Shown: positions 20,368-23,015, counted from the stretch's first letter. The stretch: DNA of 64,000 nucleotides from an uncultured Clostridia bacterium (GCA_934454215.1 CAKSGG010000004.1:16885-80884), one strand, 5' to 3'. Notes: generated by a model from the sequence alone, not told the origin. Numbers and translations are program-made.

Positions 20368-21525
20368 GTGGCGGTAGTTGGTTTGCAGAAAGCTTCAATA
20401 AGCTCTATCAGACGGCAAATTGAAAAAATGCAGGCTGAAAGCGAAAATGCGGAAAAGAAAATCCGTTCAGCGTTGAACGGTCTTGATTTTGAGGTTGCTT
20501 CAAAGCAGAACATCAGAAATTGCCTTAATACCCTTATAACATCGGCGAACAGACAAGGCAGCTTATCGGGGCAGTATAAAACTGCGTTTCTGAATGTAAC
20601 AAATTCGGTGGTAGAGAGTGACGGTAAATTCGGAAATCAGTCACAGTCGATATGTGACCGCATTAAAAAATATGTAGAAGGTGCAGCATCTGATGCAAAA
20701 AAATTTTTCTTCAAAAACAAAATTGCAAAATACGCAGCACTGGCAGGAATGTTTTTAACAAACCCGTTGGGCGTAGTGATGACAAGTGCGGTTTTTCCGA
20801 ATAGTAAGATAGCTAAAGAGTATGTAAAGGCAGGAACAGAAGCAGTATCTTTGGCAAAGAAAATATATGACCAGGCAAAGGAAAGCTACGACAATAAGGG
20901 AGTTGTATATAAGGCGCACCAGTATGGAAAGGCAGCTATAAAAGTAACCGCTGGAGCAGTGAAAGTTGGTGGAGCCATTGGTGCAATATTGTTTTCGACT
21001 GGTGCATCGACTCCGTTGTCAATGATTACTGCAATAAGTGGTATCAATGATATGGTCAGCGGAATTGCTGATGGTATTTATGTTCATAACGAGCAATACG
21101 ATATGGTAGGGCAGACTAATGCATTAAAGAATTATCTTGTTGAAAGCACAGGAGAAATTGGTGCATATTTTGGAAAAGAATCAACAGGAGAGTATATTGG
21201 CAATTTGATATATACAGGCTTTGAAGCGGTTACATTTCTTGATGGTGCTGAAAAGATGCTGACATCAATGGGAAAGGTTAATACGATATTAACCGGGCAG
21301 TACGGTTCATCAGGTTCATTTTTCTGGGAGAAGGATAAAGTATCATTTGAGGCGATAGCTAATAGTAAATTAAAATTTGCTGTGGAACCCGACTATTTTA
21401 TTCGCAAAATTTTGAAAGTAAATCCTGCATCTGATGGTAATATTATTTATGAGGCAGGAAAAAGTATTTTCAAAATGTTTGGTAAAGCGTCAAAGTTTGG
21501 AAAACAAATAAGCAGCTTAATTTAA
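20368..21525 (+). CDS. T7SS polymorphic toxin candidate 1: LXG-like helical N-domain plus Gly/Ala-rich hydrophobic C-domain
   Basis: The first ~100 aa are shared with the 21852 protein. The C-terminal half has glycine-zipper-like stretches 'GAVKVGGAIGAILFSTGAS..ISGINDMVSGIADGI'. Confidence 0.6.
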   Translation: MAVVGLQKASISSIRRQIEKMQAESENAEKKIRSALNGLDFEVASKQNIRNCLNTLITSANRQGSLSGQYKTAFLNVTNSVVESDGKFGNQSQSICDRIKKYVEGAASDAKKFFFKNKIAKYAALAGMFLTNPLGVVMTSAVFPNSKIAKEYVKAGTEAVSLAKKIYDQAKESYDNKGVVYKAHQYGKAAIKVTAGAVKVGGAIGAILFSTGASTPLSMITAISGINDMVSGIADGIYVHNEQYDMVGQTNALKNYLVESTGEIGAYFGKESTGEYIGNLIYTGFEAVTFLDGAEKMLTSMGKVNTILTGQYGSSGSFFWEKDKVSFEAIANSKLKFAVEPDYFIRKILKVNPASDGNIIYEAGKSIFKMFGKASKFGKQISSLI

Positions 21526-21539
21526 AAAAGTGAAAGGTT

Positions 21540-21830
21540 GTGAAAGATATGAAAAATCAATTTTTACCGGTAGGTAGCGTTGTATCATTGGAGGGTGCGC
21601 AAAAGAAGCTCTTAATTATTGGTTCGGCGGTAGAACGGGAAAACGACAAAAATATATATGATTACATAGGTGTTCCGTATCCGGAGGGATATGTTGATAG
21701 TGAAACTATGTTTCTTTTTATGGCAAACGATATAAAGGAGATTCACTTTATAGGTTATGTTAATGCAGAGGCACAGGTGTTTATGCAGAAATACGCTGAT
21801 TTGCTAAAAAGCGTTGACGCTCAAAAATGA
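21540..21830 (+). CDS. DUF4176-like small protein (T7SS-locus associated; possible immunity or accessory protein)
   Basis: 'FLPVGSVVSLEG..KKLLIIG......YDYIGVPYPEGY' fits the DUF4176 pattern. Confidence 0.6.
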   Translation: MKDMKNQFLPVGSVVSLEGAQKKLLIIGSAVERENDKNIYDYIGVPYPEGYVDSETMFLFMANDIKEIHFIGYVNAEAQVFMQKYADLLKSVDAQK

Positions 21831-21851
21831 TATTAGGAGGCAATCAATAAA

Positions 21852-23015
21852 ATGCCAAACATTATGTTAAAAAAATCTTCAATCAGTGCAATTTCGCGGC
21901 AGATTGAAAGAATGCAATCCGAAACAGAGGATGCGGAAAAGAAAATCCGTTCAGCATTAAACGGTCTTGATTTTGAAGTTGCTTCAAAGCAGAACATTAG
22001 AAGTTGCCTTAATAACCTTATAACATCAGCGAACAGACAGGGCAATTTATCGGGGCAGTATAAAAGTGCATTTTTGAATGTAACAAATTCTGTTACAGAG
22101 GGTGACAGCAAATACGGCAATCGGTCGCAGTCGATATTTGACAGAATAAAAATGACACTGCACACAGGCGGTGAAAGTTTGCATGATTTTCTTTTTCGCA
22201 ATAGAATACGAAAAATTATGTCTATAGCGGGGGCATTTATAGTAGCTCCGGTTTGTGTTATCACTACGATAGATATCAAGCTGCTGGAAAAAATGGCGAA
22301 CATATCGAAAAATTGGTTTACAACGACGGCTTATGCGGCAGATAATGAACCGATAGTTATAGGTGTAGATCCTACAAAGGTAAAGGAAGATAACAGTACG
22401 ACTGAAAGTAATAATAATTCCGGAAATACTGATACAAATTCTGCACCGGCTGATAATATTCCAAATGAGAATGTGCAGACAAATGGTAATACCAAAGGAT
22501 ATACAGGCTCATCAAGAGATGTTTCCGGCGGAGCATACGGAGATTACAGTGTTGTAAACGGATTTGATGAAAAGTATGTGTTGAATCAATATGACTATGA
22601 TTTGCGGCAATCAGACGGTTCCAATGGCGGTTGTACGTCAACATCTGATGCAATGGTCGGGGCATTTAAGAACAATCAATATTATAACCCGGAGGATGAT
22701 TGGCCGGGTCCCGGTCATGGCGGTGCCAGATGGACGCACACCAAAAGCATTGAAGGAAGCAGTTCGTGGTCTGACGGACGCAGATATACGGAAATATATA
22801 ATCAGGTTAATAGCGGTAATGCAGTAGTAATAAGAGTTACCGGACATTCTATGGTTGCAATCGGCGTAAAAAACGGCTGTGATCCCAACAATATGTCAGC
22901 AGCGGATGTTTTGATTGCCAATCCCGGAACCGGTAAAATCTCGAATTTGCAAGAGTATTTAACATCAAGCAGGCGACAGTTAGATAATTCGTGGTCGTTG
23001 CGTGTTGCAAAGTAA
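21852..23015 (+). CDS. T7SS polymorphic toxin candidate 2: the same N-domain plus a papain-fold (C39-like) Cys-His C-domain
   Basis: GGAGG SD. The N-terminus is paralogous to the 20368 protein. C-terminal motifs are 'NGGCTSTSDAMVGAF' and 'VTGHSMVAIGV'. Confidence 0.6.
   Translation: MPNIMLKKSSISAISRQIERMQSETEDAEKKIRSALNGLDFEVASKQNIRSCLNNLITSANRQGNLSGQYKSAFLNVTNSVTEGDSKYGNRSQSIFDRIKMTLHTGGESLHDFLFRNRIRKIMSIAGAFIVAPVCVITTIDIKLLEKMANISKNWFTTTAYAADNEPIVIGVDPTKVKEDNSTTESNNNSGNTDTNSAPADNIPNENVQTNGNTKGYTGSSRDVSGGAYGDYSVVNGFDEKYVLNQYDYDLRQSDGSNGGCTSTSDAMVGAFKNNQYYNPEDDWPGPGHGGARWTHTKSIEGSSSWSDGRRYTEIYNQVNSGNAVVIRVTGHSMVAIGVKNGCDPNNMSAADVLIANPGTGKISNLQEYLTSSRRQLDNSWSLRVAK

What the first reader, a model, noticed from the sequence alone, without database searches (positions are those of the whole stretch)
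20368..23015. Two paralogous T7SS toxin candidates share a ~100-aa delivery domain but carry unrelated C-terminal warheads
Residues 1 to ~100 of the two proteins are nearly the same (ISSIRRQIEKMQAESENAEKKIRSALNGLDFEVASKQNIRNCLN... versus ISAISRQIERMQSETEDAEKKIRSALNGLDFEVASKQNIRSCLN...). The similarity is visible at the DNA level too (about 20368-20670 versus 21852-22154). After that point they diverge completely. Toxin 1 ends in a Gly/Ala-rich, glycine-zipper-like hydrophobic domain, which suggests a membrane-depolarising toxin. Toxin 2 ends in a papain-fold Cys...His domain (GGCTSTSDAM ... GHSMVAIG) behind an N/S/T-rich linker. A DUF4176 gene follows toxin 1, but no obvious immunity gene follows toxin 2; the next gene encodes a WXG100 protein. 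The shared 5' module is the classic substrate for warhead swapping by recombination.
Basis: partly seen in the sequence, partly recalled or inferred. Interest (0 to 1): 0.6.

Follow-up and report, generated by a model that had tools for sequence, protein, structure and literature searches.

The report
Swappable-head type VII secretion effector pair
Two neighbouring genes in a type VII secretion operon of an uncultured gut Clostridia bacterium share a small helical export tag but carry different working ends (a membrane-active domain with its own chaperone, and a cysteine peptidase), and sister strains show these ends being exchanged as cassettes, although no antidote gene accompanies them.

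Summary
The two ORFs are 20368-21525 (385 aa) and 21852-23015 (387 aa). They share 64% identity over residues 1-139 (E 1e-59) and 84% over residues 21-100, and nothing after that.

- **Shared module.** It is a divergent WXG100-like helical hairpin with an [F/V]xxxD motif, followed by a hydrophobic helix. No Pfam or NCBIfam model recognises it. It heads at least 214 protein clusters.
- **Working ends in that family.** Those that can be recognised all act on the cell envelope: lysozymes, M23, NlpC/P60, CHAP, C39-like peptidases and glycine zippers.
- **Protein 2.** It ends in a confidently folded papain-like domain with invariant Gln, Cys, His and Asp.
- **Protein 1.** Its helical, partly Gly/Ala-rich domain is followed by a small DUF4176 gene in all three loci examined that carry it. 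DUF4176 is a published T7SSb toxin chaperone, not an immunity protein, and its sequence tracks the working end.
- **Cassette exchange.** Sister loci with 92-99% identical flanks carry different cassettes. The breakpoints lie at the end of the shared module, so warhead swapping is directly supported.
- **No immunity gene.** None accompanies any cassette. "Antibacterial toxin" is therefore likely but unproven, and a role in remodelling the producer's own wall (EssH-like) remains possible, especially for the peptidase.

The parts
14437..18969 (+). EssC-like T7SS ATPase (1510 aa; FHA plus two FtsK/SpoIIIE domains)
   Evidence: Pfam FtsK_SpoIIIE E 4e-47 (2 stretches) and FHA E 9e-22.
18987..19787 (+). 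Conserved 266-aa soluble protein of unknown family. It lies between EssC and YukD in every related locus.
   Evidence: No Pfam, NCBIfam or PDB match. The same slot holds a 249/266-aa gene in L001, L004, L005, L009, L010, L013 and L015.
19787..20044 (+). YukD/EsaB-like ubiquitin-fold protein (85 aa)
   Evidence: Pfam YukD E 7e-9.
20048..20335 (+). WXG100 protein (95 aa) directly upstream of protein 1. Candidate hairpin partner or targeting factor.
   Evidence: Pfam WXG100 E 9e-11. The position is conserved in related loci.
20368..21525 (+). Protein 1 ('slot 1' effector, 385 aa): shared N-module plus a helical, partly hydrophobic C-domain.
   Evidence: ORF. Homologues at 37-78% identity. AlphaFold2 model all-helical but low confidence, pLDDT 37.
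20368..20667 (+). Protein 1 N-terminal hairpin module (residues 1-100): turn motif LNG-LD, then VxxxD ending at D85.
   Evidence: 84% aa identity to protein 2 over residues 21-100. Predicted helices 8-38 and 45-88. Motif counts across the family.
20725..20796 (+). Protein 1 hydrophobic helix (about residues 120-143). The upstream recombination breakpoint (20758-20761) falls here.
   Evidence: Kyte-Doolittle 19-aa mean 1.52. Homology to L001, L004, L009, L010 and L011 ends at 20758-20761.
20800..21522 (+). Protein 1 warhead (residues 145-385). The Gly/Ala-rich hydrophobic core lies at residues ~186-235 (20923-21072).
   Evidence: Hydropathy peak at 190-209 and a small-xxx-small ladder at 197-222. 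The same warhead is fused to a Pfam-recognised WXG100 N-domain (P0176) and to another N-domain (P0177).
21540..21830 (+). Small DUF4176 protein (96 aa): predicted cognate cytoplasmic chaperone of the protein 1 warhead.
   Evidence: Pfam DUF4176 E 6e-27. PDB 9DCS, the small DUF4176 that stabilises TelD, E 2e-8. 58-60% identical to the DUF4176 next to the same warhead in L014 and L015, but only ~40% to the DUF4176 next to a different warhead in the near-identical locus L010.
21852..23015 (+). Protein 2 ('slot 2' effector, 387 aa): shared N-module, hydrophobic and amphipathic helices, low-complexity linker, papain-like domain.
   Evidence: ORF. Homologues at 41-99% identity. AlphaFold2 model.
21852..22151 (+). 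Protein 2 N-terminal hairpin module (residues 1-100): L36-N37-G38-L39-D40 at the turn, VxxxD ending at D85.
   Evidence: Predicted helices 2-38 and 45-87. Residue positions checked.
22206..22289 (+). Protein 2 TM-grade hydrophobic helix (residues 119-146). It is followed by an amphipathic helix and a conserved A-x-A motif (TTAYA/AD, about residues 159-165).
   Evidence: Kyte-Doolittle mean 2.29. The AHA/AYA motif is visible in alignment A3.
22482..23012 (+). Protein 2 papain-like cysteine peptidase domain (residues 211-387). Catalytic candidates: Q246 (22587), C261 (22632), H332 (22845), D352 (22905).
   Evidence: Invariant columns in 14 homologues. pLDDT 80-94. Peptidase_C39_2 weak hits in 4 of 14 homologues, best E 2e-4. 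Weak Foldseek matches to papain-like proteases UfSP and IdeS/IdeC.
23019..23333 (+). WXG100 protein (104 aa)
   Evidence: Pfam WXG100 E 1e-12.
23384..23680 (+). WXG100 protein (98 aa; EsxA-like). Three members of the N-module family detect it by tblastn.
   Evidence: Pfam WXG100 E 4e-19. tblastn hits from P0062, P0094 and P0076, E 8e-9 to 2e-6.

Best explanation
Both genes encode substrates of the EssC-type (T7SSb-like) secretion system in whose operon they lie. They belong to an unannotated family of polymorphic effectors.

**Export tag (inferred).** The first ~100 residues form a WXG100-like helix-turn-helix. The turn motif is h-x-G-L-D and helix 2 ends in an [F/L/V]xxxD 'export arm'. This hairpin probably bundles with one of the three small WXG100 proteins encoded next to it and is recognised by EssC. 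A hydrophobic or amphipathic helix follows, then the exchangeable working end.

**Protein 1 (inferred).** Its working end is helical and partly Gly/Ala-rich and hydrophobic, so it is probably membrane-inserting. The small DUF4176 encoded directly downstream most likely keeps it soluble and stable in the producer's cytoplasm.

**Protein 2 (partly shown).** Its working end is a papain-like Cys-His-Asp peptidase. The substrate is not known. It most likely cuts peptidoglycan peptides or another cell-surface substrate, because the recognisable working ends in the family are nearly all cell-wall hydrolases.

**Cassette exchange (shown by comparison).** The conserved 5' module, together with the start of the next paralogue or the next WXG100 gene, provides the homology arms for replacing C-terminal cassettes. 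For hydrophobic warheads the cassette includes the cognate chaperone.

**Purpose (inferred).** The most likely purpose is contact-dependent attack on the envelope of competing Gram-positive bacteria. No step of export or activity has been tested experimentally.
For: - **Operon context.** EssC (FHA + 2x FtsK_SpoIIIE), YukD and three WXG100 genes are co-directional and tightly packed. The same gene order occurs in 9 independent related loci.
- **N-module family.** A profile search of 1.84 billion representatives finds 214 clusters with E <= 1e-3. The module is almost always at residue 1 of proteins of 330-590 aa. In 94 of 108 full-length members an [FLIVMY]xxxD motif ends helix 2, and in 70 it is FxxxD. 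FxxxD is the motif required in Lap1 targeting factors (PMC10801868).
- **Link to WXG100.** Three family members hit the window's WXG100 gene by tblastn, E 8e-9 to 2e-6. Two of 136 members hit Pfam WXG100. The same protein 1 warhead is fused to a Pfam-recognised WXG100 domain in P0176. The model is a helical hairpin.
- **Warhead repertoire.** Peptidase_C39_2 x8, M23 x6, NlpC/P60 x2, CHAP x2, Phage_lysozyme2, Amidase_6, Gly-zipper x3, and PF00959 lysozyme. No nuclease, NADase or deaminase was seen.
- **Cassette exchange.**
  - L001 and L004 are 98.6-99% identical except from slot-1 residue ~125 to slot-2 residue ~300. There one has a hydrophobic warhead plus DUF4176 and the other a lysozyme without DUF4176.
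  - Window versus L010 (92-97% identity) breaks at 20758 and resumes at 21823.
  - Window versus L009 breaks in slot 2 at 22152 and resumes at 23024.
- **Chaperone.**
  - The DUF4176 protein matches PDB 9DCS.
  - Small DUF4176 stabilises the membrane-depolarising toxin TelD (PMC12478183), and a DUF4176 protein stabilises the glycine-zipper toxin TelE (bioRxiv 10.64898/2026.03.12.711312).
  - DUF4176 identity follows the warhead, not the locus.
  - A small DUF4176 gene follows this warhead in the window, L014 and L015.
- **Peptidase.** Q/C/H/D are invariant, and the model is confident.
Against: - **No immunity candidate.** None lies next to either gene. The L001/L004 swap changed nothing else within ~9 kb on either side. 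Characterised T7SSb, T6SS and CDI toxins almost always carry a linked immunity gene.
- **Secretion machinery incomplete by annotation.** The locus has no recognisable EssB, EsaA or EssA, so the secretion route is not a textbook T7SSb.
- **TM-grade helix in protein 2.** Its hydrophobic helix (KD 2.29) could hold the protein in the producer's membrane.
- **Weak direct evidence for the hairpin.**
  - The window's own N-modules hit neither Pfam WXG100 nor LXG.
  - hhalign against the local WXG100 proteins is weak: probability 4.8%, pairwise E 0.008.
  - The hairpin has low pLDDT.
- **Weak evidence on the working ends.** The protein 1 model is unusable (pLDDT 37), and protein 1 has no Gly-zipper Pfam hit. 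Foldseek hits for the peptidase are all weak, E >= 0.17.
- **Slot 2 is not very polymorphic in function.** It holds a Cys/His peptidase in every locus seen, which fits a conserved role better than a polymorphic toxin.
Confidence: 0.6

Rival explanations
1. These are dedicated wall-remodelling enzymes of the secretion system itself, working like S. aureus EssH. The peptidase in slot 2, and the lysozyme found in slot 1 of sister strains, would open the producer's own thick peptidoglycan so that this minimal T7SS can assemble or pass its substrates. They would not be weapons, so they would need no immunity gene.
For: - No immunity gene is linked to any cassette.
- Slot 2 carries a papain-like Cys/His peptidase in every locus examined. 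These include the distant L005, where it is the only such protein, and L013, where Peptidase_C39 scores E 3e-7.
- T7SSb in S. aureus needs the CHAP hydrolase EssH, which co-purifies with the core complex (PMC13059805).
- The locus lacks EsaA, EssA and EssB, so some wall-spanning function is unaccounted for.
Against: - Slot 1 alternates between a lysozyme and two unrelated hydrophobic domains in strains that are 99% identical elsewhere. An essential housekeeping part would not do this.
- Slot 2 is itself swapped for a different Cys/His domain in L009.
- The same warheads occur behind several different N-modules, which is the signature of polymorphic conflict systems.
- From my knowledge of the family, EssH is exported with an ordinary signal peptide. 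These proteins have none.
Confidence: 0.22
2. These are N-in/C-out membrane-anchored proteins inserted by Sec/YidC, and are not T7SS substrates. The hydrophobic helix at residues ~120-145 would act as a signal anchor. The cytoplasmic hairpin would dock on or regulate EssC, and the enzyme domain would sit on the outer face of the membrane. The conserved A-x-A motif about 20 residues after the helix could be a cleavage site that releases it.
For: - The helix is TM-grade in protein 2 (KD 2.29) and is preceded by basic residues (RNRIRK/KNKIAK), which fits the positive-inside rule.
- The AHA/AYA motif is conserved in many slot-2 homologues.
- All recognisable C-domains act outside the membrane.
Against: - Only 24 of 108 family members have a TM-grade segment at this position. 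Most have a Gly/Ala/Ser-rich, moderately hydrophobic stretch. This resembles the disordered amphipathic 'middle domain' of chaperone-dependent LXG toxins (PMC12478183) more than a signal anchor.
- The N-module carries the export-arm motif and is transitively related to WXG100.
- The protein 1 warhead needs a cytoplasmic chaperone family known from exported T7SS toxins.
Confidence: 0.1
3. This is a lysis or release module. A membrane-active protein plus wall hydrolases would act together on the producer itself, like a holin and endolysin, to release cell contents or a mobile element.
For: A membrane-active domain sits next to a peptidoglycan-type hydrolase. According to earlier notes of this scan, the operon lies on a putative mobile element with recombinase switches.
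Against: The genes are embedded between WXG100 genes behind EssC in all loci. They share a WXG100-like tag that holins and endolysins lack. In L004 and L009 the membrane-active partner is replaced by a lysozyme, so the holin-like part is dispensable.
Confidence: 0.04

Closest known systems
LXG polymorphic toxins of T7SSb with small DUF4176 partners (S. intermedius TelD, S. aureus TspA; S. gallolyticus TelE with LcpE)
   Same: - N-terminal helical targeting domain and an exchangeable C-terminal toxin.
- A membrane-active warhead stabilised by a DUF4176 chaperone (PMC12478183; bioRxiv 10.64898/2026.03.12.711312).
- Location in an EssC/WXG100 locus.
   Different: - The N-module is ~100 aa, not ~200, and no member hits the Pfam LXG model.
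- There is no DUF443 or other membrane immunity gene.
- No Lap1/Lap2-type genes are recognised, only WXG100 genes.
- The host T7SS lacks recognisable EssB, EsaA and EssA.
WXG-headed polymorphic toxins predicted by comparative genomics (Zhang et al. 2012, PMC3482391: WXG, LXG and LDXD N-terminal domains for T7SS export)
   Same: A WXG100-like hairpin fused to variable C-terminal toxins that diversify by cassette recombination.
   Different: - In that survey the T7SS-linked warheads listed in the passages I read are nucleases and deaminases with named immunity families. Here only envelope-acting domains are recognisable, and there is no immunity gene.
- The turn motif is h-x-G-L-D, not WxG.
- I could not test identity with the 'LDXD' domain, because no model or sequence was at hand.
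EssH, the CHAP peptidoglycan hydrolase required for S. aureus T7SSb (PMC13059805)
   Same: A Cys/His papain-clan hydrolase encoded with a T7SS and needing no immunity gene. Slot 2 is similarly constant across loci.
   Different: - No CHAP Pfam hit.
- There is no N-terminal signal peptide; the protein has a WXG100-like hairpin and an internal hydrophobic helix instead.
- The domain is swapped between strains.
T6SS cell-wall effectors (Tae amidases, Tge muramidases); from my own knowledge of the field
   Same: Secretion-system-delivered papain-like amidases and lysozyme-like muramidases used against neighbouring bacteria.
   Different: Those always come with a periplasmic immunity protein (Tai/Tgi) and belong to a Gram-negative injection system.

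Membership tests
LXG toxin family (Pfam PF04740) | Match to the LXG domain model at the N-terminus (~200 aa) | tested here: not met
   Neither protein, 10 diverse homologues, nor 136 family members gave an LXG hit. The module is ~100 aa.
LXG toxin family (Pfam PF04740) | Cognate immunity gene directly downstream | tested here: not met
   The next genes are DUF4176 and WXG100. None was seen in 9 related loci.
LXG toxin family (Pfam PF04740) | EssC-dependent export with small helical partner proteins | not testable with these tools
   Only the gene context (three adjacent WXG100 genes, EssC, YukD) is available.
WXG100 superfamily (for the shared N-module) | ~100-aa helix-turn-helix hairpin | tested here: met
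   AlphaFold2 predicts helices 2-38 and 45-87 in protein 2, and 8-38 and 45-88 in protein 1. pLDDT is only 40-56. The Foldseek match to ESAT-6/CFP-10 (3fav_C, TM 0.73 on the target) is weak, E 5.3.
WXG100 superfamily (for the shared N-module) | Detectable sequence homology to WXG100 proteins (PF06013) | tested here: inconclusive
   - The window's own modules give no Pfam hit.
- hhalign against the local WXG100 proteins gives probability 4.8%, pairwise E 0.008, collinear over 85 columns.
- Transitive links exist. Three family members hit the window's WXG100 gene at E 8e-9 to 2e-6. Two of 136 members hit PF06013. P0008 hits it at E 0.02.
WXG100 superfamily (for the shared N-module) | W-x-G motif at the turn | tested here: not met
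   The turn reads L36-N37-G38-L39-D40. The family consensus is h-x-[GN]-L-D.
WXG100 superfamily (for the shared N-module) | C-terminal export-arm motif (YxxxD/E, or FxxxD in Lap1) | tested here: met
   D85 is invariant in alignment A4. The window proteins read VxxxD. 94 of 108 family members have [FLIVMY]xxxD and 70 have FxxxD. Motif function is taken from PMC10801868.
DUF4176 / Ltc (Lcp) T7SSb toxin chaperones | Match to PF13780 and to a solved small DUF4176 | tested here: met
   Pfam E 6e-27, covering the whole model. PDB 9DCS E 2e-8. At 96 aa it falls in the 'small' class (PMC12478183).
DUF4176 / Ltc (Lcp) T7SSb toxin chaperones | Specific pairing with one toxin | tested here: met
   DUF4176 identity follows the warhead: 58-60% among partners of the protein 1 warhead in different loci, against ~40% to the partner of another warhead in a near-identical locus. 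It is absent next to lysozyme cassettes.
DUF4176 / Ltc (Lcp) T7SSb toxin chaperones | Physical binding to and stabilisation of the toxin | not testable with these tools
   Needs co-expression and pull-down.
Papain-like cysteine peptidases near Peptidase_C39_2 (PF13529) | Conserved Gln / Cys / His / Asp(Asn) catalytic set in that order | tested here: met
   Q246, C261, H332 and D352 are invariant in 14 sequences.
Papain-like cysteine peptidases near Peptidase_C39_2 (PF13529) | Significant match to the family model | tested here: not met
   The window protein has no hit at E <= 1. Four of 14 homologues hit, best E 2e-4, below the gathering score. More distant family members hit at up to E 1.6e-7.
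Papain-like cysteine peptidases near Peptidase_C39_2 (PF13529) | Papain-like fold | tested here: inconclusive
   The domain model is confident. Foldseek hits to UfSP, IdeS/IdeC and a viral USP are weak: E 0.17-2.2, probability up to 0.77. The profile search of PDB sequences found nothing.
Glycine-zipper membrane toxins (TspA / TelD / TelE type) | Repeated GxxxG-type zipper in a hydrophobic helix | tested here: inconclusive
   There is a small-xxx-small ladder at residues 197-222 and a hydropathy peak at 190-209, but no Pfam Gly-zipper hit for protein 1. Three other family members do hit Gly-zipper models.
Glycine-zipper membrane toxins (TspA / TelD / TelE type) | Polytopic membrane immunity protein (e.g. 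DUF443) encoded nearby | tested here: not met
   None is present in the operon or in related loci.
EssH-type T7SS-dedicated wall hydrolase | CHAP domain | tested here: not met
   No CHAP hit for protein 2 or its 13 homologues.
EssH-type T7SS-dedicated wall hydrolase | Constant presence in the secretion locus; required for secretion | tested here: inconclusive
   A Cys/His peptidase occupies slot 2 in all loci seen. The domain type varies (L009), and any requirement for secretion cannot be tested here.

The most novel reading that the evidence does not exclude
These hairpin-tagged proteins may not be weapons at all. They may be the missing envelope parts of a minimal clostridial type VII system that has only EssC, YukD, a 266-aa protein and WXG100 proteins.

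In this reading the WXG100-like hairpin docks on EssC. The hydrophobic helix sits in, or crosses, the membrane. The exchangeable head (peptidase, lysozyme or membrane-active domain) opens the producer's own wall or membrane for secretion.

More broadly, type VII secretion in gut Clostridia would be a Sec-independent export route for peptidoglycan hydrolases that needs no immunity proteins.
Probability: 0.2. Interest if true: 0.75.

Novelty: new variant of a known kind. Interest (0 to 1): 0.5.

Why it matters
Polymorphic T7SSb toxins have been studied almost only in Bacilli (Staphylococcus, Streptococcus, Bacillus), and almost only as LXG proteins with linked immunity genes. This locus differs in several ways.

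- It shows an unannotated, WXG100-like targeting module in uncultured gut and rumen Clostridia.
- Every recognisable cargo of that module acts on the cell envelope: muramidases, endopeptidases and membrane-active domains.
- Natural before-and-after examples of cassette exchange exist between strains that are 99% identical.
- Warhead and DUF4176 chaperone co-vary. This fits the published speculation that small DUF4176 proteins shield membrane-inserting helices.
- No immunity gene is present.

If the cargo is antibacterial, these are candidate narrow-spectrum lytic enzymes from the gut microbiota, and a case of immunity-free or intrinsically immune antagonism. If it is not, they point to how a minimal T7SS gets through a thick cell wall. 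Both outcomes can be tested with a few constructs.

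Tried and rejected
- **Sequence family searches.** Pfam and NCBIfam scans of both proteins gave no family.
- **PDB sequence searches.** Searches with single sequences and with profiles gave nothing for protein 2 and only coiled-coil noise for protein 1.
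- **Structure of protein 1.** The AlphaFold2 model has pLDDT 37, so I ran no fold search on it.
- **Foldseek with the protein 2 model.** Against the PDB it gave only weak papain-like hits and a weak ESAT-6 hit. Against the viral library it gave nothing useful.
- **Homology of the N-module to local WXG100 proteins.** hhalign gave a collinear but statistically weak match. It counts only as a hint.
- **A second EssC.** I suspected one at 35228-39757. It is a clostripain-family (Peptidase_C11) protein, so the idea is rejected.
- **Silent warhead cassettes.** A tblastn search of the window with 178 family proteins found none.
- **LDXD domain of Zhang et al.** I considered whether the N-module is this domain. 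The motif here is LDxE/Q, not LDxD, and no model was available, so the question stays open.
- **The A-x-A motif as a signal-peptidase site.** It lies ~20 residues past the hydrophobic helix, so it is not a canonical signal peptide. I kept it only as a note.

Full report

Yes. The window has two co-directional ORFs at 20368-21525 (385 aa, GTG start) and 21852-23015 (387 aa, ATG start behind GGAGG).
- BLASTP aligns residues 1-139 at 64% identity, E 1e-59, and finds nothing significant afterwards.
- Residues 21-100 are 84% identical in protein and 85% in DNA, with dN/dS about 0.16. The shared block is therefore under purifying selection.
- Residues 101-139 are only 28% identical, but both keep a hydrophobic helix. 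Beyond that, identity is at chance level (7%).
- A DUF4176 gene (21540-21830) follows the first ORF. A WXG100 gene starts 4 bases after the stop codon of the second.

**2. Anatomy of the two proteins**

*Protein 2.*
- Two long helices (2-38 and 45-87) form a hairpin. The turn reads L36-N37-G38-L39-D40, and helix 2 ends in V81-x-x-x-D85.
- A TM-grade hydrophobic helix follows (residues 119-146, Kyte-Doolittle mean 2.29), then an amphipathic helix, an A-x-A motif and an N/S/T-rich linker.
- The last part is a well-predicted alpha/beta domain (residues 211-387, pLDDT 80-94).
- In 14 homologues Q246, C261, H332 and D352 are invariant. This is the order of the papain-like catalytic set.
- The window protein hits no Pfam model. 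Four of its 14 homologues hit Peptidase_C39_2 weakly (best E 2e-4), and more distant relatives hit it at 1.6e-7.
- Foldseek finds only weak matches, all to papain-like proteases (UfSP, IdeS/IdeC, a viral USP), plus ESAT-6/CFP-10 for the hairpin.

*Protein 1.*
- It has the same hairpin and a weaker hydrophobic helix (KD 1.52).
- Its C-domain is 240 aa and helical. The Gly/Ala-rich hydrophobic core lies at about residues 186-235, with a small-xxx-small ladder at 197-222.
- Its AlphaFold2 model is unreliable (pLDDT 37).

**3. Surroundings**

The gene string runs: Ser/Thr kinase, FHA protein, PP2C phosphatase, EssC-like ATPase (FHA plus two FtsK/SpoIIIE domains), a 266-aa protein of no known family, YukD, WXG100, protein 1, DUF4176, protein 2, WXG100, WXG100.

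The order EssC, 249/266-aa protein, YukD, small helical protein, effector(s), WXG100, WXG100 recurs in nine related loci from metagenomes and MAGs. These are labelled uncultured Clostridia, Clostridiales, Ruminococcus and Lachnospiraceae.

No EssB, EsaA or EssA is recognisable. An earlier first-reader note of this scan says the same.

**4. The shared module is a family**

I built a profile from eight N-modules and searched 1.84 billion representative proteins.
- It finds 214 clusters at E <= 1e-3. The match is almost always at residue 1 of proteins of 330-590 aa.
- The family consensus keeps an h-x-[GN]-L-D turn and an FxxxD motif at the end of helix 2. In 94 of 108 full-length members the motif is [FLIVMY]xxxD, and in 70 it is FxxxD.
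- FxxxD is the motif whose mutation in the Lap1 targeting factor LapD1 abolishes export of the LXG toxin TelD. It parallels YxxxD/E of T7SSa substrates (PMC10801868).

No member hits the Pfam LXG model. The evidence for a link to WXG100 is as follows.
- Three members detect the window's own WXG100 gene by tblastn, E 8e-9 to 2e-6.
- Two of 136 members hit Pfam WXG100.
- hhalign of the N-module against the local WXG100 proteins is collinear over 85 columns and aligns the two invariant Asp residues, but it is weak: probability 4.8%.

I read the module as a divergent WXG100-superfamily hairpin. That is an inference resting on transitive hits, not on a direct match.

**5. What the family carries**

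Of 136 members scanned, those with a recognisable C-domain carry Peptidase_C39_2 (8), Peptidase_M23 (6), NlpC/P60 (2), CHAP (2), Phage_lysozyme2, Amidase_6, Peptidase_C39, Peptidase_C70 and glycine zippers (3). Close relatives carry the PF00959 lysozyme.
- None of the Pfam domains recognised is a nuclease, NADase, deaminase or ADP-ribosyltransferase, although such domains dominate among LXG toxins.
- Most members have no Pfam hit at all, so this is a statement about the recognisable fraction only.
- The same warheads also occur behind other N-modules. The protein 1 warhead is fused to a Pfam-recognised WXG100 domain (P0176) and to two other hairpins (P0177, P0027). The protein 2 peptidase is fused to a different hairpin (P0034-36).

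**6. Warhead swapping is directly visible**

- **L001 versus L004.** Their DNA is 98.6-99% identical over about 9 kb on each side. They differ from residue ~125 of the slot-1 gene to residue ~300 of the slot-2 gene. L001 has a hydrophobic warhead plus DUF4176. L004 has a lysozyme and no DUF4176.
- **Window versus L010.** Identity is 92-97%. It is lost at window 20758 (protein 1 residue ~130) and regained at 21823. L010 carries a different hydrophobic warhead with a different DUF4176.
- **Window versus L009.** Identity in slot 2 ends at 22152 (residue 100) and resumes at 23024. L009 has another Cys/His domain there.

**7. DUF4176 is a chaperone, not an immunity protein**

- The 96-aa protein matches PF13780 (E 6e-27) and the crystal structure 9DCS (E 2e-8).
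- 9DCS is the small DUF4176 whose deletion destabilises the membrane-depolarising toxin TelD in the producer cell. The authors speculate that small DUF4176 proteins shield membrane-inserting helices (PMC12478183).
- A DUF4176 protein likewise stabilises the C-terminal region of the glycine-zipper toxin TelE (bioRxiv 10.64898/2026.03.12.711312).

Three observations here fit that role.
- DUF4176 accompanies the hydrophobic warheads and is absent next to the lysozymes.
- A small DUF4176 gene follows the protein 1 warhead in all three loci examined that carry it, whatever the N-module.
- Its sequence tracks the warhead. Partners of the protein 1 warhead are 58-60% identical to one another, but only ~40% identical to the partner of another warhead in a near-identical locus.

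**8. The missing immunity gene**

No candidate lies in the operon. The L001/L004 swap changed nothing else within ~9 kb on either side. This is the main argument against a simple 'antibacterial toxin' label. Self-protection could be intrinsic (wall chemistry), unlinked or unnecessary.

**9. Verdict on mechanism**

| Reading | Probability |
|---|---|
| Both are T7SS-exported, hairpin-tagged, cassette-swapping effectors aimed at cell envelopes, with protein 1 membrane-active and chaperoned by DUF4176, and protein 2 a papain-like hydrolase, probably of peptidoglycan | 0.6 |
| EssH-like own-wall remodelling, most plausible for the functionally constant slot 2 (PMC13059805) | 0.22 |
| Sec/YidC-inserted membrane anchoring | 0.1 |
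| Self-lysis module | 0.04 |

Export, enzymatic activity and chaperone binding are all inferred. The architecture, family membership, conserved catalytic residues, cassette exchange and chaperone-warhead covariation are shown.

**10. Comparison with what is known, and novelty**

T7SS polymorphic toxins with WXG, LXG or LDXD heads were predicted in 2012 (PMC3482391). LXG toxins with Lap partners and DUF4176 chaperones are now well characterised. This locus is a variant of that kind, with these differences:
- a short targeting module that no model recognises;
- an envelope-only cargo repertoire that includes peptidoglycan hydrolases;
- no linked immunity gene;
- a host T7SS without recognisable EssB, EsaA or EssA.

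Other agents' notes in this scan describe similar 'WXG-tagged wall hydrolases' in other gut bacteria. They are unverified, and I use them only as context.

Noticed in passing
window 32216-33103 (+): A lipoprotein (lipobox ...FASGC) with a C-terminal LprI 'lysozyme inhibitor' domain (Pfam E 8e-14) lies ~9 kb downstream of the effector pair. It could be an unlinked protection factor against lysozyme-type cassettes seen in sister strains, or it could be unrelated.
   Followed up: no
window 18987-19787 (+): A 266-aa soluble protein with no Pfam, NCBIfam or PDB match lies between EssC and YukD. The same slot holds a 249/266-aa gene in every related locus. It is a candidate core component or substrate chaperone of this minimal T7SS.
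   Followed up: partly
window 22326-22346 (protein 2 residues ~159-165): An A-x-A motif (TTAYA/AD; AHA/EE in many homologues) is conserved just after the amphipathic helix and before the low-complexity linker. It may be a processing site that releases the peptidase domain.
   Followed up: no
window 23785-26594 (+): An SLH-domain protein (598 aa) and a Cu_amine_oxidN1-domain protein (304 aa) lie between the WXG100 pair and the polytopic Ser/Thr kinase. L001 and L004 lack these two genes; there the kinase follows the WXG100 pair directly. L010 has the SLH gene.
   Followed up: partly
window 35228-39757 (+): A 1509-aa ORF, the same size as EssC, is a clostripain-family (Peptidase_C11) protein. 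A Peptidase_MA-like protein follows it. It is not a second secretion ATPase.
   Followed up: yes
window 41573-53849 (+): A block of helicase, DNA polymerase III beta-like, DUF3268, SSB, MoxR-type AAA, VWA and JAB-domain genes. It looks like part of a mobile element or a MoxR-VWA ternary system.
   Followed up: no
L014 9122-9722: Two different small DUF4176 genes (43% identical) sit in tandem after a protein 1-type warhead. Only the first resembles the window's DUF4176 (60%). The second is nearer to the partner of the other hydrophobic warhead (about 50%).
   Followed up: partly
L013 4440-7374: In a Lachnospiraceae MAG two paralogues of the family (424 and 457 aa) are separated by a second YukD-like gene. 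The first carries a Peptidase_C39 domain above the Pfam threshold (E 3e-7).
   Followed up: partly
L005 9104-11587: In a more distant locus an 827-aa ADP-ribosylglycohydrolase-domain protein and a PP2C phosphatase follow the WXG100 pair. This suggests that regulatory wiring of these T7SS loci varies between lineages.
   Followed up: no
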